DNA of 63,688 nucleotides, filler included, from Eremomyces bilateralis CBS 781.70 (taxonomy: Eukaryota): the NCBI GenBank assembly GCA_010015585.1. It is 5 parts of 5 records of this genome, joined end to end, with 100 filler letters (N's around TTAATTAATTAA, not from the genome) between each part and the next. Parts side by side here need not be neighbours in the genome. Positions count along the whole stretch, not along the records: positions 21,095 to 39,390 come from ML975205.1; 4 more parts are not named here. One strand, 5' to 3'. Positions 12,987 to 39,490 of the stretch are shown here, piece after piece. Position numbers and translations under genes: made by a program. The notes beneath the pieces were generated by a model, which worked only from the letters and a program-made list of their open reading frames with translations, did no database searches and had not been told where the DNA came from. Each line of letters opens with the position of its first letter. Within the stretch, counting starts at the first letter, position 1.

Positions 12987-15900
12987 CCAAACATCAAAGG
13001 ATCTTGATGCCTGAGGCATCAAGTTCCACACAGGTTGGAAACAAAGACAACAGCTTGTCGTTGAAGACAGCCATGTCAACACGCCCCCTCAAGCTGTTGG
13101 AGCTTGGGTGCTTGAGCAGAGTTTGCAGAACAATAGAGAAGAACAATAATAAAAGGAAATCCTCCTCAATTTCTCTCTGATTCTCACTAATCTCGAACTC
13201 TGCGTAATCCCAGGTTAGTCCTATGATAAGCAAACTTGCTCAGGACCAGAGGTTTCGTAAACCCATCTGCGATCATCTCATCTGTAGAACAATAGACGAG
13301 GACAATAGACCCGTTAACTACGTGGTCTCGCACAAAATGATACTGAATATCAATGTGCTTATTCCTAAAATGGAACAATGGATCTTTTGCGAGGGCCATG
13401 GCGGATTGGCTGTCAGTCAGAACAATAGGACGAATCGTTACCATTGTTCTGAAATACTCCGGGAGCTCCTTGATAAAGGATTGCAGGAAAAGGGACTCCT
13501 TAACCGACTCCTTGAGTGCCATGTATTCCGCTTCACACGAGCTCAACGCAACAGATTTCTGGAGTTTTGACGACCAAGACACTGCAGTCATATTGCTATT
13601 GTTCCCAATCCGGAAACAATAGCCAGTCGTCGACTTCCTGGAAACAGGATCACCACCATAATCCGCGTCAGAGAATCCGTCAATGACAATGCCATCTGGA
13701 CTAGAACAATAGACCAGACTAAAGTCAATAGTCTCCGCTACGTACGACCAAATTTTATCCAGTAGGATGAAGTGGTCAGGGCTTGGATTGTGCATAAAAC
13801 GAGCACAATAGGAGACACAATAGGTCAAATCTGGTCGAGTATGAACAATAGCATGGATCAATGATCCCACCTGCTCTTGATACGACCTCTTTTGATCCGA
13901 GGTCTGAGCTGGAGATTCCTGTGCGGGCAGGACCTGGAATCCAGGAGGAAAGGGATTTTTCGCCTTACGTATGGTCAATTTACCAAAACGTTCAAGGCAC
14001 TTCCGAAGGTATCCTGACTGATTAAGGGCAATAGAACTGTCGTTACTATTGTTCAGTTCGATGCCAAGGAAGTAATGGATCTGGCCCAAATCTTTAATAA
14101 TCAGGCCTAGACCTAGGAGGTCTTGGAGAACCTTTGTCGCTGTTTCAGTAGAACCAGTCGCAACAAGGATATCGTCAACGTACGTGACGATAACAATAGG
14201 CAAAGTTGGGTGGAAATAGCAAGTGCTATCCGTGGTCAATGCCACAAAACCCAAAGACAATAGCAAGCCATTCAGATAGCGTTGCCAAAGTCGAGGCGAC
14301 TGTTTCAATCCATACAGTGCCTTTTGGAGGAGACACACGTCACTAGACGCGTGTTCAGAATCAGTAAAACCAGTGGGTTGTTCCACATAGATGGTTTCAG
14401 ATAATGGGGCGGAGATGAATGCCTGTTTGACATCCCAATGACGAAGACAATAGCGATTCTGGATCGCTATGGCAACAATAACACGGTATGTTACCGGTTT
14501 TGTCGTCGAGGCAAAGGTATCACGGTAATTGATACCGTATTCCTGTGAAAACCCCTTGACAACCCATCTTGCCTTGAATTTCTCCACAGAACCGTCGGCA
14601 TGCAACTTTTTGGTTAGGACCCAACGCCCCCGCAAGACGGGCGTATTGTCCGGTCTAGGAACAATAGACCAAGTCTTGTTTTCAATCAGACCTCGGTATT
14701 CCTCGTGGATTGCGCCCATATAGGAATCGGTTTCTTCGTGGGTTCTTCGCAACACTGAATTGACTGATTGATTGGTCAAGGTTTCTGTCGCGTTAACCAC
14801 ACCTGTTGGCGCCGCGGCTTCGATAAGTTGCTCAATCCATGACAATGATGATTGATCATGTGAATCTGAGTCAGCAATAGGAGGAACAATAGGAGAGCTC
14901 GTCTCCTCTGGATTATCCAGGTCATTGTCCTCCGAAGGTCTCATATTTTCCGGGATTTCGAGTTCCGTGTCGTCAACATCATTGCGGTTCTTCCAGAACC
15001 TATGTTCAAACACCGACACGTCCCGAGCCCACGTAGTCCTATTGTCTTCGGGAGACAATAGCTTGTATTGATTAGATCCGTATCCAATCAAATACCAACG
15101 AGTTCCGCGTGGATCCAGCTTCCTGACATTATCCTCGCGTTTGTACGCTAAGGATCCCCATACACGTATCTTCGTAAGATCGGGCTGTACTCCAGTCAAC
15201 ACCTCAATAGGAGTCTTGTTTCCTATTGTCCTTGAAGGAGTCCTGTTATACAGGAAGGTGGCAGTAAGAAGAGCATCTCCCCAATTGCGTTTAGGAAGAC
15301 CAGATGAGACGAGCATCGCACGGACCTTATTCATAAGAGTCCTATTGATACGCTCAGCGATCCCATTTTGTTCTGGCGTGTACGGAGCTGTCGTGGTCCC
15401 CTGGATTCCACGTTTCTTGAGGTAATCCTGCAAAGATTTCTTCATATATTGTCTTCCATTGTCTGAATGGAGACGTTTCACGACCCGAGGATTCTCCGAA
15501 GTCCAGGCCTGTTTTTCGACAAATTTGATATGCTCTATCACGGTTTTCTCTATTGATTTCATATCTGTCAATAGATAGATCCAACAATAGCGCGTGTGGC
15601 CATCAACAAAGGTAATAAAATACCGATATTTCGCAGAAGTCCGGGGAGAAATAGGTCCGCAGATGTCCGTATGGAGGACATCGAGATATTGTTCCGGTCG
15701 AACAATAGGAGTCCGACTAACCACGCGAGTCTGATTGGCGGCCGAACAGTCTTCGCACTGAATCGACTGGATTTCTGAGTACGTAAGACTTGGTCCATCC
15801 AATTTCGCGGCGTTGGTAAGGGCTTGAAGGGCTGGTTTTCCCACGTGACCCATCCGTCTGTGCCACGTGATCGCGGTGTCGGAGGTCGCGTTGACCGTCT

Positions 15901-17454
15901 CGTCATGATTTGGGGACGAGGTCAACGTCTGAAGAGAGGAACGATCAACAAGATCGAACAATAGGGCAGCGACATTATCTTCCATTGTTCCAGAAGCAAT
16001 GGCTTCATTTTCTCGGAAAATATAGAAATAGTCGCCTTCAAATTCGGCTCGGAAACCTTGCTTGGTCAATAGACCTAAGGACAATAGGTTGGCCTGGAGC
16101 TGAGGAACAAAGAGGACATTGCGTATACGTAAGATGCGATGGGCAAGCTCAATTCGAACCTCACCAACACCAGACGCCTGAATCGCTTTCCCGCTATTGT
16201 TCCCGCCCCAACGAATCGTCTTGTTTGTAGAGTCAAGACATGTAAACAGCTCGCGTTGCCAACACACGTGGACCGTCGCCCCGGTGTCAACGACCCAATC
16301 GGTCGTTTTTGGCTCAATGGCCGTGAATAGGACCGTCTCAGGCTTCTCAGAACCGTTTGAGGAAGTCATCTGAACAGTCCCATTGTTTCTCTTCCCATTG
16401 TTCCGGAGATGTGGATATTTTTGCCAACACCGCTCTTCCGAATGCCCTTTTCTCTTGCAATAAGGGCAAACGGGCTTAGAGTCTGACGTATGGTCAATTT
16501 CCATTGCGTCTCCGTGTAGGGACGAGGTATTATGGCTCGCATCATTGCCCGTACTGTTCTCGTGGGTCTTATTAAATGCGGCGGGGAAGAAGGCATTGTT
16601 ATTGCCATTGTTGCCGGATTTAGTAGTCTGTTTACTTTTTCCGGTCTTTTTAGAGATGCGACGATATTCATCCAGTAGCTGTGCCTGGATCGACGCAAAA
16701 GAGATAGCTGTATTCCCTCGTATTGTCTGGATCAAAAGAGATGCTATTGTGTCGTATTCTGGGGTTAATCCATTGATAACAAGGGCCAGAATGAATTTCT
16801 CCGGAAGTCCAGAATCTCGTAAGGAGAGCTCATCCTTGATCTCCTGGATCTTGTTGGTATAGATCTCCATATTGCCCTTGCAAGACAATAGGGTCGTGCC
16901 AATAAGGTCCTGGCAGAGGATGAAATCACTAGAGAACCCTCTATGGCCGTAAAGGGTCTCGATCTTGTTCCACATTTCGAAAGGCGTTTCACAGAAACGA
17001 ACCTGGATAAGAGGACCGTCGGCAAGAGTCTTGATAATACAACCTCGAGCCATCCTATTGTTATGGAAAATGGTATTGTATTCCGTAGTATAGGCCGATC
17101 GCTCTTCTTCCGTCGCGTCATTGGAAACAGTTGGATAGACCGTAGGAGTCTCAATACAAGGGTAGTATCCCTTTTCGTATAATAGCTGCTCAACACGGAT
17201 CTTCCACAGACTGTGGTTGTTGGCTCCATAGAGCTTTGGGATCTTCTCCCCATCATTTGAACCCATTCTGAAGAATTGAGGGAACAGTAGTAAGATGAAG
17301 AGGGAGGCAAATGAGGAAGTAAATATAAGAAGTTCCTAGGCTAATTTGGGCTCATAACCTATTGAGATTGGAATATCTGTAGAGGCTCAATCTTCCACGA
17401 TTGGAATATCTACAAAGGCTCAACCTCAGGCACAGTGGGTAAGGAACTCCATAT
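12987..17454 (-). mobile_element. Ty1/Copia LTR retrotransposon; both LTRs run into gaps
   Basis: PBS-like GGTTATGAGCCC (minus strand, 17348-17359) follows a 5' LTR ending ...CTCA. Purine tract GAGGGGG then TGTTGAC starts the 3' LTR at 13081. Intact gag-pol ORF. Confidence 0.95.
13187..17266 (-). CDS. Copia Gag-Pol polyprotein, 1359 aa
   Basis: CCHC knuckle CPYCKRKGHSEERC, protease VVDTGAT, GAG-pre-integrase WHRRMGH, integrase (HTDICGP, HSDNGRQY, NGIAER), RT (KARWVVKG, LYGLKQS, YVDD) and RNase H (FSDADYGG, KHIDIQYH), in PR-IN-RT-RH order. Confidence 0.97.
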   Translation of the reverse strand: MGSNDGEKIPKLYGANNHSLWKIRVEQLLYEKGYYPCIETPTVYPTVSNDATEEERSAYTTEYNTIFHNNRMARGCIIKTLADGPLIQVRFCETPFEMWNKIETLYGHRGFSSDFILCQDLIGTTLLSCKGNMEIYTNKIQEIKDELSLRDSGLPEKFILALVINGLTPEYDTIASLLIQTIRGNTAISFASIQAQLLDEYRRISKKTGKSKQTTKSGNNGNNNAFFPAAFNKTHENSTGNDASHNTSSLHGDAMEIDHTSDSKPVCPYCKRKGHSEERCWQKYPHLRNNGKRNNGTVQMTSSNGSEKPETVLFTAIEPKTTDWVVDTGATVHVCWQRELFTCLDSTNKTIRWGGNNSGKAIQASGVGEVRIELAHRILRIRNVLFVPQLQANLLSLGLLTKQGFRAEFEGDYFYIFRENEAIASGTMEDNVAALLFDLVDRSSLQTLTSSPNHDETVNATSDTAITWHRRMGHVGKPALQALTNAAKLDGPSLTYSEIQSIQCEDCSAANQTRVVSRTPIVRPEQYLDVLHTDICGPISPRTSAKYRYFITFVDGHTRYCWIYLLTDMKSIEKTVIEHIKFVEKQAWTSENPRVVKRLHSDNGRQYMKKSLQDYLKKRGIQGTTTAPYTPEQNGIAERINRTLMNKVRAMLVSSGLPKRNWGDALLTATFLYNRTPSRTIGNKTPIEVLTGVQPDLTKIRVWGSLAYKREDNVRKLDPRGTRWYLIGYGSNQYKLLSPEDNRTTWARDVSVFEHRFWKNRNDVDDTELEIPENMRPSEDNDLDNPEETSSPIVPPIADSDSHDQSSLSWIEQLIEAAAPTGVVNATETLTNQSVNSVLRRTHEETDSYMGAIHEEYRGLIENKTWSIVPRPDNTPVLRGRWVLTKKLHADGSVEKFKARWVVKGFSQEYGINYRDTFASTTKPVTYRVIVAIAIQNRYCLRHWDVKQAFISAPLSETIYVEQPTGFTDSEHASSDVCLLQKALYGLKQSPRLWQRYLNGLLLSLGFVALTTDSTCYFHPTLPIVIVTYVDDILVATGSTETATKVLQDLLGLGLIIKDLGQIHYFLGIELNNSNDSSIALNQSGYLRKCLERFGKLTIRKAKNPFPPGFQVLPAQESPAQTSDQKRSYQEQVGSLIHAIVHTRPDLTYCVSYCARFMHNPSPDHFILLDKIWSYVAETIDFSLVYCSSPDGIVIDGFSDADYGGDPVSRKSTTGYCFRIGNNSNMTAVSWSSKLQKSVALSSCEAEYMALKESVKESLFLQSFIKELPEYFRTMVTIRPIVLTDSQSAMALAKDPLFHFRNKHIDIQYHFVRDHVVNGSIVLVYCSTDEMIADGFTKPLVLSKFAYHRTNLGLRRVRD

Positions 17455-18288: not shown

Positions 18289-20994
18289 TTAGTTTAAAAG
18301 AAGGTAAGGGCGGGTTCGATACCGTGTTAAGAGAGTAGAGAGTTGTCCGTCTAAGAAATTCGACCCTACGTAGTTCTTCTGTAGGTCCCGGTAGAACTTG
18401 GCCGTTTTAAGCTCGCAGAGGCCGCCAACGGAGAGAACGAGGGGGAAGAAGTCCTTACCGTGAGCCCGATACTTTGCAATCTTGGCCTTGGCTGCCTCGT
18501 CGAGGACCTGAAGGGGCGGCCTAGCTTTGACGGAGCTCGCGTGGACTGAGACGACGGTGAGGTCGTAGAAGGTCTCTCCAGGGGGGCCCAGGACCGAGAT
18601 GTCAGCGCGGTGGCCAGTGGGGTCACGTGAGTCAAAGGGAGGCTCCTCCTTGATAGTCCTCGAGGGGTAAGCCACGCGCATGGCGCGCGCTAAGACTCCT
18701 CGGATCGTATCATGGCGGGTGGCGGTCCCTCGTTGCCTTGTTCGGCATGACTCCGCGTGGAAGGGTGTGTTTTCTATTCCGCAAGGGCAAATGGGCTCTT
18801 GGTCGCCTCCGAGGAGCATTCGAAGTTTCAGGGCCGTAGCTAGCTCTCCGTCCGCAAGAAGAAGTGGTTTTTATGAAGGCAGGACGTTAAGCCAGTGGCG
18901 ACCGAAAAACGACGCGTTTTCCGTCAGGGTAGCGACCCTCGTGGGGTCCTTTTGGTCGCTAAGGGTCTTTTGGACCCGTTCTAGCCGTTGACGGGCCAGA
19001 GATTGCCCGATTTCCCTCTGGGGGGGCGTGGGGGGCCTTGGGGGGTCTGGAGGGAGGTCTGGGGGCGGAGGAGTTCCAACAAAGACGTAGGCGACTGGGA
19101 GGGGCTGAACTGGGTCGTCTGGGTCAATCAAGGGATCCCGGAGGGGCGTAGGCCAGCCAAGGGCGGTCCGGAGGGACTGGGAGGCGAGCTTTGAGGCCGA
19201 TCGGTAAGCTGGGATGCTTAGTTCCTCGTAGAGGGGGAGACCGAGGCCTCCGAGCTTCACCGGCAAGGCGATTAGGTCTCGATCGAGCGGGTAGGACGTC
19301 GGGTCGCCTCGAATCAGGCCAATGGCGCGCTGGATTTCGTCGTCTGCAGTCTGCCAGGTTTCTCCGAGGCCGAATGGGTGTAGAGTTCTTAGGAGGTGGC
19401 GGAGGGTTAGCGACACGCACGTGCGTAGGAGGAGGAGGGCTCCTTGTTTCGGGAGGGCGAGGATCCGGGAGACGGCGGTCTTGAATTCGACGATTTTCGC
19501 TTCTAGGAACTGTTTCCTAGCGTCGTCCGGTCCGATGAAGCTTCCGAGTGCCCGAATTCCCTCATTTCGGACGAAAGTAGTCGAATATTCGCTACTTTTC
19601 GTCTCGTTTAAGATCAGGGGCGCTCGGAGGTTCCGAAGGGTGTCCCGAACGATTCCCCGGGCTCCTTCGTTTGGCGAGAAAAGGTAGATATCGTCGAGAT
19701 AGGCGATCATCTTGACTCGTGGGCCGAGGACTTCGTGGAGGGCGCTGAGGGTATCCCGAATTGCGATCGAGAAGAAGAAGGGGCCGAGGGGATCTCCTTG
19801 GCGGACTCCTTGGGCGGACGTGAGGAGGGGGCCGCCTGTCGTGGCCAGAATGGAGGGTTCTCCGTAGGCCCATTGGGCTAGGCGGTAGAAGTCTGGGGCG
19901 TACTTGTAGATTCCCTTAGCCATGGCGGTCCTATCGACGGTATTGAAGGCGTTTGAGAAGTCCAACGACGTAATTCTGGAGAATTGGGCCTTCTGGTCGC
20001 CGAAAACGGTCCGTTCAATGGCACGCAGGGCTGGTTCCACTCCTCCAGGGGATCCTACGCCAAGCTGGTATGGGAGAAGGGAGCTTGGCGAGTAGTTTTC
20101 CCGCAGGATCGCCTTGGCTACGACTCGGTAGAGGAGATCTCCGACGGCGATTGGTCGAAGGCCTCCGTCTTCCTTTGTCAAGGCCACCAGGCGGGCGGCG
20201 AGGAGGAGGTCTCGTCCGTGGGCGGTCCCTTGGACGATCTGCTTACCGAGGAGTTCGAGAAACGAGGCAAATTGAGGCTCCTTTGTTGCGATTTCCGTCA
20301 GAGCCTTGGTCCATCCGCTCAGTCCTGCCGAGGTTTCCGTGGGAAGGGAGCGTATTGCGGCCCAGATGGTGTCCTTGGATGGGGCACGTCCGGAGCGGGG
20401 CTTGAGGGAGCCTCCAAAGGGGCGGGGCGGGCCAGGGGGGTGTTTTTTCCGCAAGATTTCCAGGTTTTCCGCTGTTAGCGGGGCGGGGCGGGCGTCCGAG
20501 ATCAGAGTCCGAACGGCTCGGGAGAGGTAGCCACGTTTAAGGAGCTTTTGGGCCTTCTCGAGGGTCTTTGGCTGTAGTTCTGATATGTCCTGGGGGATAG
20601 GCGGCGAAGGGGAACGAGGAGGCGTTAGAGGTTCCATGATCGGGGGCGGAAGAGGGGCAGGAGGCCGAATGTTTGGGTATTTCCGGAGGGTTTCCGCGAT
20701 TGGTTGTCCGAGGCCACCTTCTCGAGCTAGCGCGAGGACTTTTGGGAGCAGGAGGATGTCGAGGAGGGACGCGGCGGTTGGGCGGGCCAGGTATACTGCG
20801 GAACAGCGGGCTGCGGCGGTTGCGAAGGCTTTGGCGTATCTTCCGTGCAGAGGGTCTTCGGTTGGGGCGACATGGGCGTAGCTGAGGAGCACTTCGAGCT
20901 CTGGGGAGATTTCCGGGACCGGAGGGGATTCCGTTGGCTGGCTGGGGTTATCCGGGCCTGTAGGAGGCGGCGGAGGGGCGGGGCGGAGATTTTT
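18289..20994 (-). mobile_element. RLE-type non-LTR retrotransposon (CRE/Cnl1/MoTeR-like), one premature stop, 5' end in a gap
   Basis: RT motifs GLRPIAVG, LDFSNAFN, GVRQGDPLGP, AYLDD and LGGLG. These are followed in the same frame by CPCG...HAESC, RHD, RADI, YDLTV and KIAKY (restriction-like endonuclease). ORFs 18871-20892 and 18289-18819 share a frame and are separated by a single TAA. Confidence 0.88.
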
Positions 20995-21411
20995 NNNNNN
21001 NNNNNNNNNNNNNNNNNNNNNNNNNNNNNNNNNNNNNNTTAATTAATTAANNNNNNNNNNNNNNNNNNNNNNNNNNNNNNNNNNNNNNNNNNNNTAGGCC
21101 TCGGATGGGTGCGGGTGGGTTGGGTTGGGGTTCTCTTGGCGTGCGGGTGGGGTGGGGTGGGGTTCTCCAAACCTGGATTCCCAACCCAACCCCACCCGCA
21201 TGCCAAGCAACCCAAACCCAACCCCACCCGCAGGCAACCAGGGACAAACCCAACCCCACCCCATGCCAAGAAACCTTGGGGGAACCGCGGGGTGGGGTTT
21301 TCTGCGGGTTCAACCCCAACCGCAAGATGGGTTGGGTTTCTTGGCGCATCTGATGGGTTTCTTGGCATTATTAAAAGGGCTTTAGACTAGATTAGGCTAG
21401 TAGCATATAGA

Positions 21412-21469
21412 GAGAGAGATTCATACGCCCGTCAGGCCTCTCTGCGAGGCCCATGTGGGGAACTAGCTA
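21412..21469 (-). mobile_element. 5'-truncated SINE/LINE-tail insertion, family D, with (TC)n tail
   Basis: 16-bp TSD GCTAGTAGCATATAGA at 21396-21411 and 21470-21485. Confidence 0.85.
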
Positions 21470-21804
21470 GCTAGTAGCATATAGAAGATGTGGTAGTCAG
21501 ATGTGGTAGTCAGATATGGTAGTTTAGTCACGCGGTATAAAATGTAAGTAGGAAGCTTTCTATTTAATTCTGGCTATAGAAGTTTATCCGGCGCATTAAG
21601 CAGGATCATTAATCTAAGAGTATACGATGCTCACTCACCCATCGTATACCCAAACCTGCGACTTGTTATTCGCCTTAACTGACAAATTGGAGAATTATAA
21701 AAACGCCATCCATTGACACCCATAACTCATGATATACGTTAAGCCATAACTAAAATATATTAGTTTATATAATCATGGTAGGATTCAGACCTTACCTTCA
21801 CGTT

Positions 21805-22346
21805 TTACTTTCGAGCGTGCTTCCTAACCGAAATGAAAGACCCGTCGCACAACCTTTCCACCAGCTCGATATCCTTCGCCTGGAGAGTTACGCGCTTGGC
21901 ATGGATGGCACAGAGGTTGGAATCTACGGTGTGTTAGTTATGTGGTAGTCAGGAGGAAGTAAATAAAAACATACTCTCAAAAAGCTTTACAAGGTATGCT
22001 TCTGATGCTTCTTGGAGCGCCTCGAGCGCAGACCTCTGGAAACGATACCCTCCATCGTAATTGAAGTCACCTGAGATCTCGCGCACAAGTCGAGCAAATG
22101 GCAATTTCGGAATCAGCAGTTCGGTTGATTTTGCCAACTGCTTGATCTCTCGAAGCACAGACACTTAGAGGTTTAGCTACTACTACACCGACTACTACAC
22201 AGAAACTTACTGCCAGGACGTTTGAAGTATGCGCCAGTCTTCGTCTTCCTTACAGGCTTTCTCGAATTCGTAGACCGTTTCCTGGCTGGGGGGCGCTTTC
22301 TGCCAGGAGTGTGCTTTCCGCCGGGGGGGCGGTTTTGAGATGGCAT
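21805..22346 (-). CDS. Divergent histone H3-like protein (147 aa, 3 exons: 22346-22211, 22163-21975, 21923-21805)
   Basis: Spliced product: [147 protein letters not shown]. Clear H3 histone fold with GT-AG introns of 47 and 51 nt. Confidence 0.92.
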
Positions 22347-23117
22347 GGTTATTCGTCGAATCGTTGGTAGAGTTATGACCGTATTGTTTGTTAGGTTTCG
22401 GTTGTAGAGAAGGCTAGGTATGGAGGAGAAAAAGGAAGGTAAAGAGAGAGGACTAGGTTGTTGGTTAGTCGACGTTGTTATGAGTAAAGGTAAGGTTTCT
22501 CACCAGGTTATCACTTCTGAAAATAATTCCAAGTCCTTTTTACCAATAACTCTGGCAAATCTTGATCGTTTTCGACCAAACGAAGTAATCTCAGCGTGGT
22601 AGTACTTGTGGTGGTCACCAAGAGCAATTTCCTCAAGATGGGAGATCTCCTAGGATATATAAAAATTAGTAAGAAGTGAAAATTAATGTCGAAAGTGACA
22701 TTCAAGTGGCTAACCGTCCTGCGAGCTTAATTCTACAAGATTTAAGCTTACTACTGCATTCGAAGTGCGGTAGTATTCGTGGTAGTCGAGTTATGTTATA
22801 AAAGGAAGAAAAACGGGTGAGTTAACGAAAATATCGAGATTTCTAAGTGTTTTGAATTTCTTCGTATTTCACTTCACTTATGAAAACCTAACCAAAATAA
22901 ACTATCCCCCAAACAAAACCTTTACCAAAACAAAACTTTCCTCTTAATGAAACTTTCTTCCCCTTACCCTAACGCCTCCCAATCTTGATTATTTTCCATG
23001 CTAGTTACAAGATTGTAAGAGTTATTAATATTTCAAAAGTGAGAATCTCAATAACTAACTTTCTGCTAGCTTCACCTATCCCATGATCCAGTGACCGGCA
23101 GTCTTAACGAGACGACA

Positions 23118-24547
23118 ATGACGGCTAAGCGGAAGGCGGTGGCCGATCTCTCTACCAATGCGAATACAGCTCGCGAGCGAAAGCGTCGGGATGCCCGGGA
23201 TGCAAGTCGCGTCGAATATGAGAACCGCAAAAAGGCTGATCAGACTGCGGTATCGCGCGCACGGGCAGCTATAGCGCTGTTACCAAATTTCAGGTCGAGT
23301 GGGACCGACAAGCGACAAGAGCTACTTCGTGTAGCGGTCGAACAAGTGACCAACGAAAGGTCAGTTATGTGTACCAGTCAATGTGGTAACTAGTATTTTT
23401 ACTAACTAATCTAGGATTAATCGTGGAGTCCATCACTCGCTCCATCCCCTTGCGGCGGTCCCTGCGACGACTAGGACTGCGCAGGACCCAAAGTTATTTC
23501 TCAATAAGCTCTATCCCGATGCCGATAACGATAGCGATTGGGAAGATCTCCATGAAGATATGGAAACTTCGGTCGATCAGGATTTCGAAATCCTAAACAG
23601 TATGCCCCTCCCGCCAACATTTAATTCGACGGATTTCAGGTTCTGGGCGGAATACAAGCGAACTGTTGCCAAATATGATTTCTATAATCGGATCGAATTG
23701 GGAGAATGGCGTCGCTTTACCAAACGATGGCAACGAGCACGAAAGGCGGTTCTATATAAGAGCCGAGCTATCAACCGAGCGAGAACTTTAGACGGTCGGC
23801 TTAGCCTTGGAAAGCTATGGCTTCTGGTAGACACCGTGGAGATTTTGGTAAGTGTGGTAGTTTATGTGGTAGTCCTATACTAACCGCATTTAGCGATCGA
23901 GTGCCGAACTGCAAAGGCTGATCCGAGCAGATTGGCAATCTTTCGGCTTAAACGCCGAAGACCAAGATTGCGCAGAACTTGAGTGGATAGTTCGTAATGC
24001 CCCGGCGTTGGACGACTGGCTGTCATCTCCGGCGTTCTACTCGAAGGGTCATTTAGATCTTCACCTCGTATGGCCGAAGCTCCCCTTCGCGATTCGATAT
24101 TTTCTCGTAAGTTTAATGCGGTAGTCAGCGTGGTAGTCTCTTTTCGGCTTATTTGACATTTTAAATCAGAACCAGAGCGCCACTTTCTCAACGGCGCCTT
24201 TTGCGCACCAAATTTTCAAGGATCGACACGAGAGAGGCATTTTAATTGGGTTCCTCGCTTGGGCTGGTCGATACCAATATGAATTCCCCTTCCCGGCTTG
24301 CTTGTGGGATGCGCCTGATAACGATGAAAGATGGGGACTTTCTAAGATTAGCGACTCGAAGACGGCTGCCATGATGTATGATGGTTTTAAACTCGTCTTT
24401 AAACCGCCTGGGAACTGCGAAGCCCCCCCTGACGCCTACCGCATCGACTGTCCAATTGATAGAGATGCGATGATCGGAGATGGATACTTGCTATCGCTCC
24501 GCCCTAACGGTGAGCGAGGGAACGCTATTTGGAAAAGGAGGATGTGA
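23118..24547 (+). CDS. Orphan hAT cargo protein ORF2 (~421 aa, 4 exons: 23118-23359, 23415-23847, 23894-24106, 24170-24547)
   Basis: Three GT-AG introns join the ORF-track pieces 23091, 23560 and 24302, plus an intervening exon, into one stop-free frame. Basic helical N-terminus. No recognised domain. Confidence 0.75.
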
Positions 24548-24836
24548 CAAGGCATCTAGCTATTCGATTGATAGGCTGGAACATTGACTACCACACCGAC
24601 TAGTACGCCCTTCGCAGACATAGTTCTGCAGCATATGAATAACGGATTCGGGCAGAATATGGGGGGCTGGTGGACCAGGAATTAATATACATTCTGCTTC
24701 AACCCATTTCCTGTGATGAATTGATAATATTCTATTAAGTACTTCAATCACGATAATACATTACTGCCATACTGACTACCACACTGACTACCACTTTTTA
24801 TCATTACTTAAACCTGTCTTTTACTCTATTTCTAAG

Positions 24837-27738
24837 ATGGCCTCTTTATACACTGATTCAGAGCCGACTGAGCCCCAGTCAAGCTTTACCGAAGCAAGGT
24901 CTGCGATCGAATCGTCCGACGGAATCGGTGTCGATGGTCTCCGGCAGTATACGATCAAAAACACGACATATTATGTTGTTGACCGAGATAACCCCGCGCC
25001 GTTTGACGATTGGTGGAAGAGAACCCAATTCTGCCTTAGGAACAAGGCTAGAGACCCTGACAAGCGGTTTAAGCCAACGTGGGATAGAAAAGTGGTTCGT
25101 TCTGATTACTGGTCCTACTTCGAAGAAATCGCCGAGTCTGCTACAGGGGTTGTTAAGATCCATTGTATCCGCTGTGGTTTTGTTGGGGGCCACCCAGCTG
25201 TAATCACTGAGAGGCTAGACGGCAGTCTCGGATCACGTACTGGCAATTCGACAATGAAGGCGCACCTTCGGTCAGGAAATTGTATGCAGAAAGCTGATAA
25301 CAAGGGCCTAACCCAGTTGACATTTCACGATATTACCGATCCAAGGCGCAAGGTAAGAGACTACTATATGAACTAGTATATACACTTTCCCTAATAGAGT
25401 TTAGGCTAGAGTTGATAGGACCCGAGCTGCCCAATTCCTTGAGGGACAACGGGTTACCTCGAAGCATTTCTTGGATTGTCTGGCTCGAATGATTGTTTCT
25501 CGGGGTATCCCTATGAACTTCTTCGAGGATCCTGAAGTCCAGCGGTCCTATCTCTGCCTAACGACTACTGAACCACCATTTAGTAACCCAAAGAGTCTGC
25601 GGAATCGGATCTTCACTCTCTATGAATCCGCGACGAAGGCAACTCGGGATGATCTTGCCCACCCTGATAGCATCAAACAGAAAATTGGTCTCGCGGTCGA
25701 TGGCTGGTCCGCAAAGTCTGGCCGTACAGGCTATCTTGGAATTCTCGCCTATTGGACCTCGACGGACATGAAATGGCATGAGGCGCTTTTAGCGTTCACG
25801 CCAACTGAGGCTAGGCATTCCGGTCGGGACCTAGCGGAGATGATCATGCAGACACTACTCAAGTTTCGAATTACTGACCGTCTACGCTCAATCACTGCAG
25901 ACAATGCTTCGTCAAATGGCACGATGGTCGCGTCTATCAACGACGAGTTGAAATTTCTGTTGTCGTCACATGGAAGCTTAGACCCGGTCGTATCAATCCC
26001 TTGTATCTCCCATGTTATTCAGCTGGTCCAGGGAGAACTCCTCAAAGGCCTCAAGTGCGTGGCGGAGAATTCGGAGATTATCCGAAACTGGGATGAAAAG
26101 GAGTTTGTGAGGGAGCAGCGCGCAATTGCGTCGTATGGGGCGGTGCCAATTACACTTTGGAAGGTGAGTCTCTACTCCTTGTAAAATGTGGTAGTCAATG
26201 TGGTAGTCATTACTAATATAGTCTAGGCTCGACAGACCGCTAAACACATTGTGGCATCGGAGAAACGACTGAGAGATTTTCTTAAGATCCAGCAGGAGCT
26301 TATCGACCAGGAACACCCGACCCTGGACAAACAGGAGCTCTTCTGGGTTAGCCTGCTCCGGCAACCCCTGCGTCCACTACAAGACGTCAAAACACGATGG
26401 GACTCGACTACGCAGATGCTTGTTCGACTCCGCATTCTTCGCCAACCCCTTGACCGTTACTGGCGTCAGGTTTCGAAGCAGTCGATGGCCCTCGATCCTC
26501 AACAATGGGATATCATCGAATACCTTATTGATATGACCGCTCCACTAAATGCATTTACGCAGTCAATTGGCAGATCGTCGTCCCCATCAATCCACAGAGT
26601 CTACACGATCTACGATACTACATTCGGCCATCTTGAATCTACGATCGATAGACTTAAGAAGAAGCATGCTTCGTGGAAGATTAGCCTCAAGGAGAGCTTG
26701 GTGAATGCCGTAGAGAAGTTGAAGAAGTACTATAGCAGGACTAGTGTTTTTACAGCTCTTGATGAAGCATACGCGTTCTCTTTCCTACTCAGTCCTAGGA
26801 CACGAAATACTGCTTTCACTTCATCGGCTTGGAAAGGGAGGGCTAATAACCGGGGACAAAATTACCGAACAGTCTACATGGGGAGACTGCGGGATCATTG
26901 GGAGGAACACTACAAGGTTGACAACCCAACCCAATCAGAAGAGGGAGCAGCTTATACACGCGGAATTGACTATGTGCGTCAACGGTTGCATCAAGATGTT
27001 CAGCCCACCGAGGGTTCAAACTCTCGATCAATGGACGAGCTAGCAAGATATTTTGACTCTTGTAAGTACATATTCCCCTTTATTCATACTCCGATCTCTT
27101 ACTAATCTTTTAATATAGGCTCGTCAAACAATATTGAACCTCTCGAAGCTTGGCGCGAGAATGGAAACTACATAGCCTACCCAACAGTTGCTCGGATGGC
27201 TCGCGACTACCTTTGTTCTCCGGCAGCATCCGTTGGCGTCGAGCGCCTATTTTTCCTTGCTCGCTGTCAGTCAGAGTTCAATCGGGAGTATAAGAGTGAA
27301 ACACTCGAGGCGATCATGGTGGCCAAGGCGAGGTTGAAGCTTGACTTTCAGATAGAATCCGAGCGTCTCCAAGAGCTGGAGGAAGAGCTAGGTGATATCG
27401 GTGATGCTGATACGTCTACGCTAGACACACTGGTTATAGAATCGGACACTCGTAAGAGGCATACTAATAGTATCCTGCGCGCGACGGGTGAAGGGGAAAT
27501 TCATTTGATCAGCGACGGTGAAGATAGTGAGGATGATGTTGAGGATGACGGGAGGGATAGCGATCCTAATACTGGGGAAGATAGGAGGGACGCTGATCAG
27601 AGCGATGGTCTAGGGGAACCAGACGAGACACTAGATGAGTTAGGTGAAGATTACGATACAGCTGGAGTAGCAAAGAGGACACGAAGTAGTACTATGGCAA
27701 GTGAACCTCAAGACCGTTCGAAGCGGAATAGGTTATAG
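24837..27738 (+). CDS. hAT transposase (~909 aa, exons 24837-25352, 25405-26163, 26227-27061, 27119-27738)
   Basis: BED-like finger (CIRC...HLRSGNC), motifs AVDGWS, ITADNASSN, CISH and TRWDST, and dimerisation domain SVGVERLF. All introns are GT-AG and in frame, with no stops. Confidence 0.93.
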
Positions 27739-28153
27739 ATAGGTTTTCTTCTATTAGAGTACTTTTGAATGAAATTAATTTCTTTCCCTTGACTACCACA
27801 CTTGACTACCACATATGACTACTATATTTAATCCCCTATTCTATCCTACAACCGGATCGTACCTCTAGTTATGCCAAGAAACCCAACCCATCTTGCGGTT
27901 GGGGCTAAACCCGCAGAAAACCCCACCCCGCGGTTCCCCAAGGTTTCTTGGCATGGGGTGGGGTTGGGGCGGGGTTTCTTGGCGTGCGGGTGGGGTTGGG
28001 GTGGGGTTTTGAAATATTGGCTTCCCACCCCAACCCCACCCGCAAACCGGCGGGTGGGGTTGGGTTTGGGTTTGCCAAGAACCCGCACCCAACCCGTTTT
28101 TTGCGGGTTGAACCCGCACCCATCCGAGGCCTAAGATTAACCTTGATCCTGAA

Positions 28154-28307
28154 GAGCCGGATCCTACGAAAACAGGCTGTTCCTGCAGCTATTTTATATG
28201 GTTTAAAATGGTGATCTTTTCCCTAAGAAGGGGAAGAATAGGGGTATAGAATCGAATACGGAATGAAGCCGTGGGGAAACGCCAAGAAACACAGATATTC
28301 TGTGACA
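28154..28307. repeat. LTR-like fragment family E, ending TGTGACA
   Basis: Diverged copy of 55140-55298. It abuts the hAT right end. Confidence 0.75.
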
Positions 28308-28327
28308 AGATAGAAAATGCAGATGGT

Positions 28328-28435
28328 GGCACAAGGCCACAAGGTACCAATGTATGTAATTAGTCAGCTTAGGTAGTTCCCCACATGGGCCTCGCCGAGA
28401 GGCCTGACGGGCGTATGAATCTCTCTGTCTCTCTC
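28328..28435 (+). repeat. SINE-like family D copy
   Basis: ...GGGCCTCGCCGAGAGGCCTGACGGGCGTATGAATCTCTCT, shared with the other D copies. Confidence 0.85.
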
Positions 28436-28451
28436 GTGGCCTTGTATAGTA

Positions 28452-29408
28452 TTAATATACACAGTACGTACTTTTGCATAAAGCACATGCCGCAGCATTA
28501 CACTCCGGACAATGAAAAGTAAATTTAGTGGGAGTCTCTCCACAAAAGATGCAGCTTGCTTCTCCTTTCTTTTTGGGCCAGCCTAGCTGGGGATGAATGC
28601 AATCCCTCGTAGGATGCTGAGTCGCGGGTTGCCCTGGCTTGGCTTGTCGACGCTCCGCGGCTTCTCGTATGCTTGCCCAATTCTGTCGAATTGCGTCCTG
28701 CTTCTCCTCTATCAATATGGACTTAAGCCGCTCCTTCGCAGCCATCTCTCGCTCTTGTCTTGCTCTCTTCGCAGACTCTTCAGACTTTCGTTCCGCCTCC
28801 ATTTCTTTCTGTTTGTGCAACCGTTCTATCGCCGCATGTTCTTGTTCTTCCCTAGCCTTTCGTGCCACCTCCCGTGACCGATATTCCGCCATTCTTTCTC
28901 TCAATTCCCTGTCTCGCGCCAGTCGCTCTTCCTCAGCTCTCCTGCGTGACGCCCTTTCCTCTGCTGCTTTTGCATCCTGCTCTGCTTGTTCCCTAGCGGC
29001 TCGTTGTTCCTCTGCCATCCTACGTGCCCGCTCGGCTTCTCGTCTGAGCTCTTTATTTCGGCGCTGTGTCTCTTGCCATATGCGATATTGGACCCATTCT
29101 CCTCGTAATTGTGGGTAATATGCGTCATATTCCGAGCGCTTTGAAGCATCACGGAGACATTCATAGGCCTCCCTAATCTGACCTGGCGCTTTAGCTTCTC
29201 TCTGCTGTTTAGAATTCTTAGTACTTACCCTGCGAAAATCGTGAGCATCAGTGATCTTCCCTGGAGCTTGTTTGTCTGGATGATGCTTTTTTGCCAGTAA
29301 ATGGTGTGCCCTTTTTATGTCCTGGAACGTTGCTGTTTGCTGTAGACCAAGGGCTAAGTAATAGTCTGACATTTGTGGACGCTCTAGCTCTGGTATAGTC
29401 TCATCCAT
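28452..29408 (-). CDS. DnaJ-domain protein with coiled coil and C-terminal Cys-rich region
   Basis: DYYLALGL...HHPDKQ J-domain. Probable in-frame 51-nt intron after DFRR. C-terminal CxxC pairs. Confidence 0.85.
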   Translation of the reverse strand: MDETIPELERPQMSDYYLALGLQQTATFQDIKRAHHLLAKKHHPDKQAPGKITDAHDFRRVSTKNSKQQREAKAPGQIREAYECLRDASKRSEYDAYYPQLRGEWVQYRIWQETQRRNKELRREAERARRMAEEQRAAREQAEQDAKAAEERASRRRAEEERLARDRELRERMAEYRSREVARKAREEQEHAAIERLHKQKEMEAERKSEESAKRARQEREMAAKERLKSILIEEKQDAIRQNWASIREAAERRQAKPGQPATQHPTRDCIHPQLGWPKKKGEASCIFCGETPTKFTFHCPECNAAACALCKSTYCVY

Positions 29409-29683
29409 ATTTTACAACAAATGCGCATGGCATACCCTAGCAATAACTTTAATCACTGCAACGGTCAAACTTGTGTAGTAGTTAAAACAAGCGTCTATGG
29501 CGGTTCGCGCTTGTTCAGAGTTGATCTGAACCTATTTCTACCGTAAGCAATATCTACTCTACTATGTTTTCTTTTCTGGCTTCTATCCAATCACACACAC
29601 CATATACGTGTATTATCATGATTGGCCGCTGAAGACGCATTCCAGCTTTTCCACAAGCCACTACATATGTATCACCATAGCCC

Positions 29684-29916
29684 TGACACGGTCTGGATGC
29701 GCAAGGTCTGCGATTACCAAGTTCCATTAATCTAAACTGAAGAGAGAGAGAGAGAGAGAGAAGAAATCTCCCGGCACCTTTGTGCGCGAGATAGCGACTC
29801 TCCTCTCCAATGCCCTACTGCTGTGTTACCATGTTTGTTTGCTTCTCTGATATAATCCACCAGCCACGTCTTCAGCCACAACCAAGGGAACAGGCCGCAG
29901 GCCTGGGACCATAACA
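29684..29916 (-). repeat. Solo LTR family B (no matching TSD)
   Basis: Reverse complement of family B. Flanks AGCCC and CTAAA differ. Confidence 0.9.
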
Positions 29917-30269
29917 CTAAAGAACGACTCGTCGAAGAAGATCAGAGTAAACGTAATCACTACGGAGACAATAGATATAGAAGAGTTATGGGACGAGACA
30001 CTTGCCAAGGATGATCAGTACTAGGTTCTCCTTTAGGCCACGAATGAAAAGGCTAGGCGGGTACTATTATAGTACAAGCACTTAAAGCTATCAATTGTCA
30101 TGGGCTGTAAGGACATAAGCCTCCTGTAGTCATGTGACAGGGTCACATGACTAGAACATAGAGAATTAGTATATATGGTTTCCAACCCCAATGACCCCTG
30201 TTTGGGATCATTGTGATCTTTTATGGTCCAATGGTATTAGCGCGGAGGGTTGGTCACGTGTCATTACAG

Positions 30270-30870
30270 TAGAGGAGGACCGTTAAAAAGAGAATTCCTA
30301 TGTAAATGGGAAGGCTATGCGGAACCGACGTAGGAAGCTGCGTAGTATATCGAGGATACAGTAGCGCTAGATGATTACGAACAGAAGACAGGGTGCGATA
30401 TCTTCAATCCTCTTAACCTAGATAATCCCCATTTCTTGCGGAGGAGGGGGCATTGTTATGGTCCCAAGCCTGGGACCTTGGTTGTGGCTAAAGACGTGGC
30501 TGGTGGATTATATCAGAGAAGCAAACAAACATGGTAACAGCAGTATGTGACAGTCTTGGGCTTCGCCCAGTCTGTGTGTTGTGGCCTTGCGGCCTAAGGC
30601 AGAAGGGATGGGTAGACTGTTTGCCCACAGATGTAAATAGCAGATCGCAGTAAGAGAGATCTTCTCCTTCTCTCTTTAGCAATTCAACAGCGTTACCAGC
30701 TTACCAAATCCTTCGTGGTTTGGGCCCATGACACAGTAGGGCATTGGAGAGGAGAGTCGCTATCTCGCGCACAAAGGTGCCGGGAGATTCCTTCTCTCTC
30801 TCTCTCTCTCTCTTCAGTTTAGATTAATGGAACTTGGTAATCGCAGACATTGCGCATCCAGACCGTGTCA
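30270..30870 (+). mobile_element. 3' end of a chromoviral Ty3/gypsy element: chromodomain relic, PPT and 3' LTR family B (30454-30870) with nested LTR A
   Basis: Chromodomain with stops, REFLCKWEGYAEPT*E...ALDDYE. The PPT GGAGGAGGGGG lies just before TGTTATGG. Confidence 0.85.
30546..30733 (+). repeat. Solo LTR family A (188 bp) nested in LTR B
   Basis: TG...CA ends and TSD CAGTA at 30541-45 and 30734-38. Confidence 0.95.
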
Positions 30871-31102
30871 TAGATAGATCAATCAATCACGTATCAATAC
30901 TTCTGCATGAGGCACTGTAGATATAGCGCCGCAGCCTTGCGAACCGACTTAACGTTTCGCCATGCCTCCGACCATAGACAACTCTCCGAAAACACCTGGA
31001 GAATTGGCCACTGATAGGGCATGGTCATAACAGGTCTCCCTAGTGGCAGTGACTTGCCGCTTTCACTAAAGTTGAACTACCAAAACATCGACGAGCGCGA
31101 AG

Positions 31103-36736: not shown

Positions 36737-36756
36737 CAAAGGACGGAAAAGATCTT

Positions 36757-36860
36757 AGAGAGAGAGAGAGAGAGATTCATACGCCCGTCAGGCCTCTCTG
36801 TGAGGCCCATGTGGGGAACTAGCTAGGATGACTAATTACATGATGGTTGCCTTGTGTCTA
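36757..36860 (-). repeat. SINE-like family D copy
   Basis: (GA)n followed by TTCATACGCCCGTCAGGCCTC... Confidence 0.85.
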
Positions 36861-39390: not shown

Positions 39391-39490
39391 NNNNNNNNNN
39401 NNNNNNNNNNNNNNNNNNNNNNNNNNNNNNNNNNTTAATTAATTAANNNNNNNNNNNNNNNNNNNNNNNNNNNNNNNNNNNNNNNNNNNN

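What the first reader, a model, noticed from the sequence alone, without database searches (positions are those of the whole stretch)
21805..22346. H3-like protein has a rewritten tail and partial CenH3-like features
Seen: the histone fold is conserved ([37 protein letters not shown]), but the tail lacks ARTKQTARKS and the canonical K4/K9/K27/K36 contexts, keeping only an ARKRS echo. Loop 1 is two residues longer ([11 protein letters not shown] versus DFKTDLRFQ), Q68 is A (PFARLVREI) as in many CenH3s, F84 is retained, and there is a basic C-terminal extension. Inference: it could form nucleosomes refractory to DIM-5/PRC2 marking, act as a decoy, or mimic CenH3 for targeting or drive.
Basis: partly seen in the sequence, partly recalled or inferred. 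Interest (0 to 1): 0.8.

Follow-up and report, generated by a model that had tools for sequence, protein, structure and literature searches.

The report
Histone H3-like gene carried by transposon
The odd histone H3 gene is real, but it is the passenger gene of an intact jumping gene (a hAT DNA transposon) in the fungus Eremomyces bilateralis, a kind of element first described in a wheat pathogen in 2013, and what such transposon-borne histones do is still unknown.

Summary
A three-exon gene on the minus strand (22346..21805) encodes a 147-aa H3-family histone. It is identical to an annotated Eremomyces bilateralis protein. The tail is rewritten, loop 1 is two residues longer, Q68 is A, F84 is kept, and the C-terminus is extended and basic.

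It is not a host core gene. It lies inside a 7,039-bp element (21095-28133). [quoted passage not shown]

In two DNA runs the element's contigs carry about five times the depth of the unique flank. cDNA-like contigs show the H3-like 3' part and the transposase spliced.

This layout (H3-like gene, central ORF, hAT transposase) matches the "H3L" element of Pyrenophora tritici-repentis (PMC3538342). RIP-killed relatives are described in PMC6710886. I therefore call it a new member of a known kind.

Descent from CenH3 or from canonical H3 could not be resolved (AU p 0.43 and 0.50). Pezizomycotina CenH3 hallmarks (RWQ, the C-terminal AWG) are missing.

Function is untested. My best guess is a nucleosome-forming H3 that lacks the K4, K9, K27, K36 and K79 contexts. 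Neutral drift remains a strong rival.

The parts
21095..21116 (+). Left terminal inverted repeat (22 nt, TAGGCCTCGGATGGGTGCGGGT). It is also the first base of this scaffold piece.
   Evidence: Perfect inverted match to 28112-28133 (pair I13). There are 2 matches in the window against 0 expected. The N-run and linker end at 21094.
21095..21373 (.). Left long, imperfect inverted end, rich in GGGTGGGGTTGGGG / CCCAACCCCACCC repeats.
   Evidence: pairs I1, I4, I5, I9 and I22 (84-96% complementary to 27866-28133).
21488..21523 (+). Left subterminal run of three GTGGTAGTC-type repeats, 13 nt apart.
   Evidence: family D6; pair I7, inverted against 27792-27827.
21750..21795 (-). Intron in the 3' UTR of the H3-like gene (46 nt, GTAAGG..TTTTAG).
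   Evidence: Skipped in the cDNA-like contig X3 record 17 (joint 21749/21796, ends CT..AC on the + strand). Sequence.
21805..21923 (-). H3-like gene, exon 3 (end of alpha-2, alpha-3, C-terminal extension, stop TAA).
   Evidence: The X3 contig piece ends exactly at 21923.
21924..21974 (-). H3-like gene, intron 2 (51 nt, phase 1, codon 109). It holds one GTGGTAGTC in antisense.
21975..22163 (-). H3-like gene, exon 2 (alpha-N, alpha-1, the longer loop 1, most of alpha-2).
   Evidence: Pfam Histone 1.9e-16 on this exon alone.
22164..22210 (-). H3-like gene, intron 1 (47 nt, phase 1, codon 46). It holds a degenerate repeat pair directly after GTAAGT.
22211..22346 (-). H3-like gene, exon 1 (start ATG at 22346; the rewritten basic tail).
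23118..24547 (+). Central gene of unknown function, read divergently from the H3-like gene. It has about four exons (ORF pieces 23118-23393, 23410-23848, 23894-24108, 24169-24547). The splice sites were read by eye, and two introns are filled by the repeat pair.
   Evidence: ORFs; sequence. No Pfam family at E<=1 for the 3 pieces scanned (23118-23393, 23410-23850, 24137-24547; the piece 23894-24108 was not scanned). No Atlas hit for the one piece searched. The gene model is not confirmed by RNA.
24837..27738 (+). hAT transposase gene, intact after splicing. Introns lie near 25377-25402, 26162-24 and 27062-27118; the last one removes an in-frame stop.
   Evidence: Dimer_Tnp_hAT 1.2e-9, 38.3 bits against a cut-off of 21.4. 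Exon 2 hits two hAT transposases with zf-BED, hAT RNase-H and dimerisation domains (E 1e-6 and 1.2e-5). The cDNA-like contig X3 record 18 joins 25403-26161 | 26225-27061 | 27119-27902. Intron sequence.
27792..27827 (-). Right subterminal run of GTGGTAGTC-type repeats, inverted relative to the left run.
   Evidence: pairs I7 and I12.
27866..28133 (.). Right long, imperfect inverted end.
28112..28133 (-). Right terminal inverted repeat (22 nt).
   Evidence: Contigs of runs X1 and X4 match from 28134 onwards and carry unrelated sequence before it, as expected at an element boundary (table 7).

Best explanation
The H3-like gene is the cargo gene ('H3L') of an intact, recently amplified, autonomous hAT-superfamily DNA transposon of Eremomyces bilateralis (window 21095-28133, 7,039 bp).

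Shown:
- Between perfect 22-nt inverted ends the element carries three genes: the H3-like gene, a central gene of unknown function, and a spliced hAT transposase gene.
- Short GTGGTAGTC repeat pairs sit at both subtermini and in every non-coding stretch.
- The element's contigs have about five times the depth of the neighbouring unique DNA, without a mismatch over 3.5 kb.
- cDNA-like contigs show splicing of the transposase and of the 3' part of the H3-like transcript.

Inferred:
- The protein folds as an H3 and pairs with host H4. The four-helix-bundle and core residues are kept.
- It would form nucleosomes that offer none of the usual methyl-lysine contexts (K4, K9, K27, K36, K79) and have altered DNA-end contacts (R40/Y41 region, R63P).
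- My preferred reading is that the element keeps the gene because such nucleosomes blunt heterochromatin-type silencing wherever they are deposited. I put that functional step at only about 0.3.

The confidence given here is for the identity: a transposon-borne H3L of the Manning-2013 kind.
For: Transposon structure:
- A perfect 22-nt TIR pair, with 2 matches in the window against 0 expected.
- Imperfect inverted ends of about 280 bp.
- A hAT dimerisation domain above Pfam's cut-off.
- Distant hAT transposase hits.
- The left TIR is the first base of an 18,296-bp scaffold piece.
- Contigs break at 28133/28134 (table 7).

Multi-copy and near-identical (table 8):
- Run X2: contigs 21441-24960 (depth 883.6, 0 differences) and 24992-27178 (876.7), against the unique flank 31117-36019 (166.5).
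- Run X1: 1142-1288 inside the element, against 188-280 in the flank.

Transcribed and spliced:
- X3 record 17 skips 21750-21795, and its piece ends at the exon-3 border 21923.
- X3 record 18 lacks two transposase introns.

Intact H3 fold:
- The spliced CDS equals P0005.
- Pfam 1.9e-32.
- 23 invariant alignment columns are kept, including the LQE and H113 positions.
- AF2 helices at 46-57, 62-82, 85-118 and 124-134, although confidence is low.

Lost mark sites.

Repeat motif: all 13 exact GTGGTAGTC copies in the window lie within 21490-27812. None of the 18 copies with one mismatch or fewer lies in a coding exon, although exons make up 61% of the element.

Same architecture in print:
- PMC3538342 (passages and Table S10 rows read) describes a 5.6-kb hAT element with transposase, central ORF and H3L, in near-identical copies, with ESTs.
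- PMC6710886 (abstract, Results part 1 and the section on occurrence read) describes hAT-borne H3 copies in six Mycosphaerellaceae.
Against: - The 8-bp target-site duplication of hAT elements cannot be checked, because the left flank is missing.
- The tool warns that contig depth is not a copy number. No second copy with its own flanks was seen directly.
- The joints across the two coding introns of the H3-like gene were not in the printed part. Only the exon-3 border and the 3'-UTR intron were.
- Homology of this transposase and central gene to the Pyrenophora element was not tested. By my hand count on Table S10, the two H3L proteins are only about 57% identical in the fold, which is less than each is to canonical H3. 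Independent capture is therefore possible.
- Nothing here shows that the protein is made, enters chromatin, or helps the element.
- The very long branch (1.27 against a median of 0.18) fits drift as well as it fits adaptation.
Confidence: 0.8

Rival explanations
1. Neutral passenger. A histone H3 copy was picked up by the hAT element and is simply carried along and transcribed. Its odd tail, loop and C-terminus are drift, and the protein has no role for the element or the host.
For: - The branch is very long and its placement is unresolved.
- No relative is closer than generic H3 among 1.84 billion representatives.
- Manning et al. themselves suggested drift for the Pyrenophora H3L (PMC3538342, passage).
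- In six Mycosphaerellaceae the captured copies are all dead (PMC6710886).
Against: - The frame, both coding introns and their splice signals are intact, despite about 35% change in a fold that hardly varies elsewhere.
- The changes spare the hydrophobic core and the H3-H3' bundle residues.
- The same three-gene layout is reported in a different order of Dothideomycetes.
Confidence: 0.35
2. CenH3-derived cargo. The element captured the host's centromeric H3 (hH3v), and the protein steers the element, or chromatin carrying it, to centromeres (targeting or drive).
For: - Loop 1 is two residues longer, Q68 is lost and T107 is S, as in many CenH3s (recalled criteria; residues).
- Fungal CenH3s score as high as canonical H3: Neolecta cnp1 122 bits, Exophiala hH3v 117 bits.
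- The AU test does not reject a clade with six CenH3-like rows (p 0.43).
Against: - It keeps RFQ, not RWQ, and EAYLV, not EAFLV. It lacks the ..RLR[GA]AWG.. end shared by the Exophiala CenH3 and the two Pleosporales CenH3s in Table S10 of PMC3538342. Those Pleosporales CenH3s keep Q68, so Q68A is not diagnostic in this class.
- A clade with Pezizomycotina canonical H3 fits slightly better (lnL +0.41, p 0.50).
- All 60 PDB rows shown are H3 or H3.3, with no CENP-A or Cse4.
Confidence: 0.07
3. It is the fungus's own single-copy CenH3/hH3v, or another host H3 variant, that merely sits among transposons.
For: - Filamentous fungi usually have one CenH3 with a divergent tail (PMC3538342, passage).
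- The host CenH3 could not be located, because no genome is held.
Against: - The gene lies between matched TIRs, together with a transposase.
- It lies in contigs at about 5x depth.
- It lacks the Pezizomycotina CenH3 signatures.
Confidence: 0.03

Closest known systems
hAT 'transduplication' element with H3L of Pyrenophora tritici-repentis (Manning et al. 2013, PMC3538342)
   Same: [quoted passage not shown]
- Several near-identical copies, with H3L transcripts present.
- An H3L that matches neither H3 nor CenH3 (passages read).
- By eye on Table S10, both H3Ls share R52K, loss of Q68, RFQRSA[IL]EALQEA, loss of T107 and a rewritten, longer C-terminus.
   Different: - This element is 7.0 kb, not 5.6 kb, and sits in another order (Eremomycetales).
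- This H3L has lost ARTK4 and K79 and has a two-residue loop-1 insert. The Pyrenophora H3L keeps ARTK and K79 and has no insert.
- Fold identity between the two is about 57% by my hand count, which was not run through a tool.
- Homology of the transposases and central genes was not tested.
hAT element with captured histone H3 in Pseudocercospora fijiensis, Cercospora and Sphaerulina (Dhillon et al. 2019, PMC6710886)
   Same: A hAT DNA transposon in Dothideomycetes that amplifies an H3-derived sequence between TIRs.
   Different: - Those copies lack introns (capture of a retrocopy), number in the hundreds, and are all inactivated by RIP.
- Here the gene has two coding introns, is intact and spliced, and is present at only about five-fold depth.
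- GC is 0.476 and the RIP indices are borderline (TpA/ApT 0.92).
Pezizomycotina CenH3 (hH3v / CenpA)
   Same: A divergent tail, a longer loop 1, and loss of Q68 and T107 in many members.
   Different: - No RWQ, no EAFLV and no AWG-type C-terminus.
- Multi-copy and transposon-borne.
- Clade membership is unresolved.
Canonical fungal histone H3
   Same: - Same fold and same tail length.
- 60 of 92 residues identical from G44 onwards.
- K56, K64, K115, K122, C110, H113 and D123 are kept.
   Different: - The tail is rewritten, and the K4, K9, K27, K36 and K79 contexts are gone.
- R63P, loop 1 two residues longer, and the C-terminus replaced and extended.
- The gene is not next to an H4 gene: only one H3-like locus is found in the window, and the divergent neighbour is the central gene.
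Histone H3 genes of giant viruses (review PMC9145170, seen in a search listing only; scan notes)
   Same: A mobile genetic entity carries its own H3 with altered mark sites.
   Different: A virus, not a cut-and-paste transposon, and no sequence kinship beyond the H3 family.

Membership tests
Histone H3 family (Pfam PF00125, H3-type fold) | A significant match to the core histone profile and to solved H3 chains. | tested here: met
   PF00125 E 1.9e-32, 112.5 bits against a cut-off of 26.4. All 60 PDB rows shown are H3 or H3.3, E about 1e-32.
Histone H3 family (Pfam PF00125, H3-type fold) | An alpha-N plus alpha1-L1-alpha2-L2-alpha3 layout, with the H3-H3' bundle residues kept (C110, H113, D123, L126). 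| tested here: met
   The residues are kept. AF2 helices lie at 46-57, 62-82, 85-118 and 124-134, but mean pLDDT is only 60.
Canonical H3 | A conserved tail with ARTK4, ARK9S, ARK27S and VK36K, plus K79 in loop 1. | tested here: not met
   None of the five contexts is present. Only ARKRS is found, at residues 21-25, and K79 is N.
CenH3 (centromeric H3) | Loop 1 longer than in H3, with Q68 and T107 replaced (criteria recalled from the literature). | tested here: met
   Loop 1 is two residues longer, with Q68A and T107S. Among the 270 of 381 session proteins that the script could parse, the combination A/10/F/S occurs twice, counting this protein.
CenH3 (centromeric H3) | F84 replaced by W (RWQ), and the Pezizomycotina CenH3 C-terminus (..RLR[GA]AWG..). 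| tested here: not met
   This protein has RFQ and ..ERLCDGSF... The Exophiala hH3v P0368 has RWQ and ..RLRGAWGG... The two Pleosporales CenH3s in Table S10 of PMC3538342 have the same features (read by eye).
CenH3 (centromeric H3) | Falls in the CenH3 clade. | tested here: inconclusive
   The branch is 1.27 against a median of 0.18 and its placement is open. AU p is 0.43 with six CenH3-like rows and 0.50 with Pezizomycotina H3. The tree had 36 rows that I chose, and no E. bilateralis H3 or CenH3 was available.
CenH3 (centromeric H3) | A single-copy host gene whose protein sits at centromeres. | tested here: not met
   For copy number, the gene lies between TIRs in contigs at about 5x the depth of the flank. 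Localisation cannot be tested with these tools.
hAT superfamily DNA transposon | A transposase with the hAT C-terminal dimerisation domain. | tested here: met
   PF05699 E 1.2e-9, 38.3 bits against a cut-off of 21.4, and 1.8e-9 on the exon alone.
hAT superfamily DNA transposon | An RNase-H-like catalytic core and a BED-type zinc finger. | tested here: inconclusive
   PF14372 reaches only E 0.095. Exon 2 hits 2 of 3699 candidates, both hAT transposases with zf-BED and hAT RNase-H domains (E 1e-6 and 1.2e-5). A C-x2-C..H-x5-C pattern in exon 1 was seen by eye only.
hAT superfamily DNA transposon | Short terminal inverted repeats. | tested here: met
   A 22-nt perfect pair at 21095-21116 and 28112-28133.
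hAT superfamily DNA transposon | An 8-bp target-site duplication. | not testable with these tools
   The left TIR is the first base of the scaffold piece. No genome is held.
hAT-H3L element (Manning 2013 kind) | H3-like gene, central ORF and hAT transposase between one pair of TIRs. | tested here: met
   The description in PMC3538342 was read.
hAT-H3L element (Manning 2013 kind) | Near-identical multiple copies with H3L transcripts. | tested here: met
   The depth ratio is about 5.3 (X2) and about 4.6-6.9 (X1), with zero differences over 3,520 nt. A cDNA-like contig is spliced at the H3L 3' end.
hAT-H3L element (Manning 2013 kind) | Sequence homology of the transposase and central ORF to the Pyrenophora element. 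| not tested
   No Pyrenophora element protein was available as a session sequence.

The most novel reading that the evidence does not exclude
The element encodes its own 'mark-blind' histone. H3L, made from about five active copies, is loaded with host H4 onto the element's chromatin. It may be guided there by the transposase or the central protein, bound to the GTGGTAGTC repeat pairs that fill every non-coding stretch and four introns. Because H3L offers no K9, K27, K36, K4 or K79 context, it would keep the element out of heterochromatin. That would make it a transposon-borne anti-silencing histone, conserved as a three-gene module across Dothideomycetes.
Probability: 0.12. Interest if true: 0.85.

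Novelty: new member of a known kind. Interest (0 to 1): 0.35.

Why it matters
Transposon-borne H3-like genes have been in print since 2013, yet nobody has shown what they do. Most reported copies are dead.

This copy is intact, spliced and transcribed, and it sits in an element that looks recently active. The host is a non-pathogenic fungus from an order (Eremomycetales) where the element had not been reported. 'Eremomyces' occurs 0 times in the main text of PMC6710886. Thirteen papers name the species, and none of the 10 titles listed concerns histones.

The protein is also the more extreme case, because all five classic methyl-lysine contexts are gone. That makes it a clean test object for two questions: whether mobile elements use histone variants against chromatin silencing, and whether the three-gene hAT-H3L module is one old lineage or a repeated capture.

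Tried and rejected
- Own genome: none is held. The host H3 and CenH3, the other element copies and the target-site duplications could therefore not be looked for.
The '2 contigs' listed for P0005 stay ambiguous: two loci, or one scaffold filed twice.
- Scan notes: nothing for this genome or for look-alike stretches. The sequence look-up gave only algal, viral or red-alga H3 notes.
- Relatives of the variant: the exhaustive HMMER search gave 14,986 hits at E<=0.001, but none closer than generic H3. The 23 hits at E<=1e-30 other than the protein itself are mostly multi-stretch concatenated gene models. Two ENA groups with long N-terminal domains share some residue states but did not group with it.
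- Central gene: no Pfam family for three exon pieces at E<=1. No Atlas hit for the largest piece.
- Atlas on P0005: only generic H3 clusters.
- AF2 monomer: mean pLDDT 60 and pTM 0.32. That is too weak for a fold search, so none was run.
- Complex prediction with H4 was not run.
- The look-up of sequencing runs listed no holder on record as RNA. Run X3 ('RNA?', a guess) was laid, and its contigs lack introns.
- Run X4 (another organism label) holds element pieces with 0 differences at depth of about 4, but has no cover on the unique flank. I read this as a trace of the same fungus, in which only repeats reach assembly depth. I make no claim of horizontal transfer.
- The RIP indices are borderline (0.92 and 1.02) and I do not use them either way.
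- My first exon coordinates were off by one. One search printed a wrong translation, and one search corrected it.

Full report
**What is there.**
- On the minus strand, 22346..21805 holds a three-exon gene with exons 22346..22211, 22163..21975 and 21923..21805.
- Its introns are 47 and 51 nt, with GTAAGT/GTATGT donors, CTAAC-type branch sites and AG acceptors.
- The spliced 444 nt give a 147-aa protein. It is identical to P0005, which NCBI names 'histone-fold-containing protein [Eremomyces bilateralis CBS 781.70]'.
- Pfam Histone scores 112.5 bits (E 1.9e-32). All 60 PDB rows shown are H3 or H3.3.
- Additional changes are D106N, T107S, K79N, T80Y and R63P.
- The tail has the same length as an H3 tail but shares almost no residue with it. 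It stays very basic, with 15 K/R in 44 residues.
- K56, K64, K115, K122, C110, H113, D123 and L126 are kept.

**Where it sits.**
- The window is not one stretch of chromosome. It is five small scaffolds joined by N44-TTAATTAATTAA-N44 linkers.
- The gene lies on the 18,296-bp piece 21095-39390.
- That piece begins exactly with a 22-nt sequence whose perfect inverted copy lies at 28112-28133. There are 2 matches in the window against 0 expected.
- About 280 bp at each end are imperfectly inverted and G-rich.

**What lies between the ends.**
- (i) The H3-like gene.
- (ii) Read divergently from it, a gene of about four exons (23118-24547) with no Pfam or Atlas match.
- (iii) A hAT transposase gene (24837-27738). 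It has a hAT dimerisation domain above Pfam's cut-off and distant hits to BED/RNase-H/hAT transposases. An intron removes the only in-frame stop.

**The short repeat.**
- GTGGTAGTC usually occurs as a pair 12-13 nt apart. It occurs 33 times in the window with one mismatch or fewer, against 10 expected and a maximum of 19 in 100 shuffles.
- All 13 exact copies lie between 21490 and 27812. They point inwards at the two subtermini.
- None of the 18 copies inside the element touches a coding exon, although exons fill 61% of it.
- In four introns the pair follows the donor site directly.

**Copies and expression.**
- In DNA run X2, single contigs cover 21441-24960 and 24992-27178 with no difference, at depths 883.6 and 876.7. 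The contig over the unique flank (31117-36019) has 166.5.
- In run X1 the figures are 1142-1288 against 188-280.
- The tool warns that depth is not a copy number. I take the ratio of about five only as a strong hint of several near-identical copies.
- This fits the scaffold breaking exactly at the TIR. It also fits contigs that match from 28134 onwards with unrelated sequence before that point.
- Run X3 was listed as RNA only by a guess, but it gives contigs without introns.
- One X3 contig joins 25403-26161, 26225-27061 and 27119-27902 (transposase).
- Another runs 21441-21749, skips a GT..AG intron in the 3' UTR (21750-21795) and ends a piece exactly at the exon-3 border, 21923.
- The joints over the two coding introns were not among the rows printed.

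**Relatives and ancestry.**
- An exhaustive HMMER search of 1.84 billion representatives found 14,986 H3-family hits but nothing closer than generic H3. Single-stretch hits reach at most 121 bits at 52-69% identity.
- In the word-based search, fungal CenH3s (Neolecta cnp1 122 bits, Exophiala hH3v 117 bits) score like canonical H3s.
- I built a tree of 36 rows that I chose: 19 H3-type rows, about 10 CenH3-like rows and some variants. No E. bilateralis H3 or CenH3 was available.
- In that tree the protein sits on a branch of 1.27 changes per site, against a median of 0.18, with open placement.
- AU tests reject neither a clade with six CenH3-like rows (p 0.43) nor one with Pezizomycotina canonical H3 (p 0.50, slightly better likelihood).
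- Fold identity is 62-65% to canonical H3s and 54-63% to CenH3-like rows.
- The protein lacks the RWQ, EAFLV and AWG-type end shared by the Exophiala CenH3 and the two Pleosporales CenH3s that I read in Table S10 of PMC3538342.
- Those Pleosporales CenH3s keep Q68, so Q68A says little in this class.

**What is known.**
- Manning et al. 2013 (PMC3538342; passages and Table S10 rows read) described a 5.6-kb hAT element in Pyrenophora tritici-repentis. [quoted passage not shown]
- That element is present as 10 long and 16 short near-identical copies, with ESTs. Its H3L matches 'neither H3s nor CenH3 completely'.
- Dhillon et al. 2019 (PMC6710886; abstract, Results part 1 and the occurrence section read) found hAT elements with captured, intron-less, RIP-killed H3 copies in six Mycosphaerellaceae.
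- 'Eremomyces' occurs 0 times in the main text of PMC6710886.
- A search for later work on H3-like genes in fungal hAT elements found 2 papers and listed only PMC6710886.
- Thirteen papers name E. bilateralis, and none of the 10 titles listed concerns histones.
- Two earlier notes of this scan report dead hAT-H3L copies in other genomes.

**Comparison with the Pyrenophora H3L.**
- This comparison was made by eye on Table S10. It was not run through a tool, because outside sequence may not be entered.
- Shared features are R52K, loss of Q68, RFQRSA[IL]EALQEA, loss of T107 and a rewritten, longer C-terminus.
- The Pyrenophora protein keeps ARTK4 and K79 and has no loop insert.
- I count only about 57% identity in the fold.
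- Whether the two elements are one lineage or two captures is open.

**How it most likely works.**
- Shown: the gene is the cargo of an intact hAT element that is present in several near-identical copies and is transcribed.
- Inferred: the protein forms H3-H4 dimers and tetramers, since the core and bundle residues are kept. Nucleosomes made with it would lack the K4, K9, K27, K36 and K79 contexts and would hold the DNA ends differently.
- I favour, at about 0.3, the view that this helps the element escape heterochromatin. Neutral drift of a passenger gene is nearly as likely (0.35).
- CenH3 mimicry (0.07) and 'host CenH3' (0.03) are poorly supported.

**Verdict.** It is a new member of a known kind, and its interest is moderate to low.

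Noticed in passing
window 20995-21094, 39391-39490, 54877-54976, 62196-62295: The window is five small scaffolds joined by N44 + TTAATTAATTAA + N44 linkers. Neighbours across these points are not physically linked.
   Followed up: yes
window 21490-27812 (for example 23849-23893, 24109-24168, 26162-26224, 22164-22210): The element's subterminal repeat pair (TGTGGTAGTC-N3-TGTGGTAGTC) also fills four short introns in all three genes, directly after the donor site. It avoids every coding exon. The pairs could be protein-binding sites, or the introns could derive from the element's own repeats. The Pyrenophora paper mentions recombination at a 'gactat' sequence, which resembles the reverse complement of this motif.
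   Followed up: partly
window 21409-21469 and 28370-28430: A 61-nt inverted pair (95% complementary) does not nest with the element's ends. The left copy is flanked by a 16-nt direct repeat (21396-21411 / 21470-21485). Many contigs with different neighbours start at 21409/21410, so it belongs to a separate high-copy repeat.
   Followed up: partly
window 21095-28133 in run X4: A 2016 DNA run with another organism label holds pieces of the element with 0 differences at a depth of about 4, but none of the unique flank. This is probably a trace of the same fungus, not evidence of transfer.
   Followed up: partly
window 33185-36736 (+): One 1,183-codon open frame in a 60% GC stretch combines FAD_binding_4, phosphomevalonate-kinase and phosphoribosyltransferase domains. 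It is covered by a cDNA-like contig (33153-36019). This is an unusual fusion.
   Followed up: no
window 40991-41980 (+): An ORF with an OTT_1508-like deaminase domain (E 5.6e-17), followed by a 506-codon ORF without any family, on a separate small scaffold.
   Followed up: no
window 6277-7374 (-): An ORF with DUF7923 plus tandem CCCH zinc fingers, lying between a pogo/Tc5-type and a Tc1-type transposase ORF.
   Followed up: no
window 13187-17335 (-), 18871-21042 (-), 62240-63688 (-): A copia-type polyprotein frame of 1,382 codons without a stop, a LINE-like RT frame in a 60% GC stretch with strong GC skew, and a gypsy-type RT at the window's end. These small scaffolds are mostly transposons.
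   Followed up: no
window 21095-21373 and 27866-28133: The long inverted ends consist of GGGTGGGGTTGGGG-type runs and their complements, spaced about 32 nt apart. They could form G-quadruplexes or hairpins.
   Followed up: no
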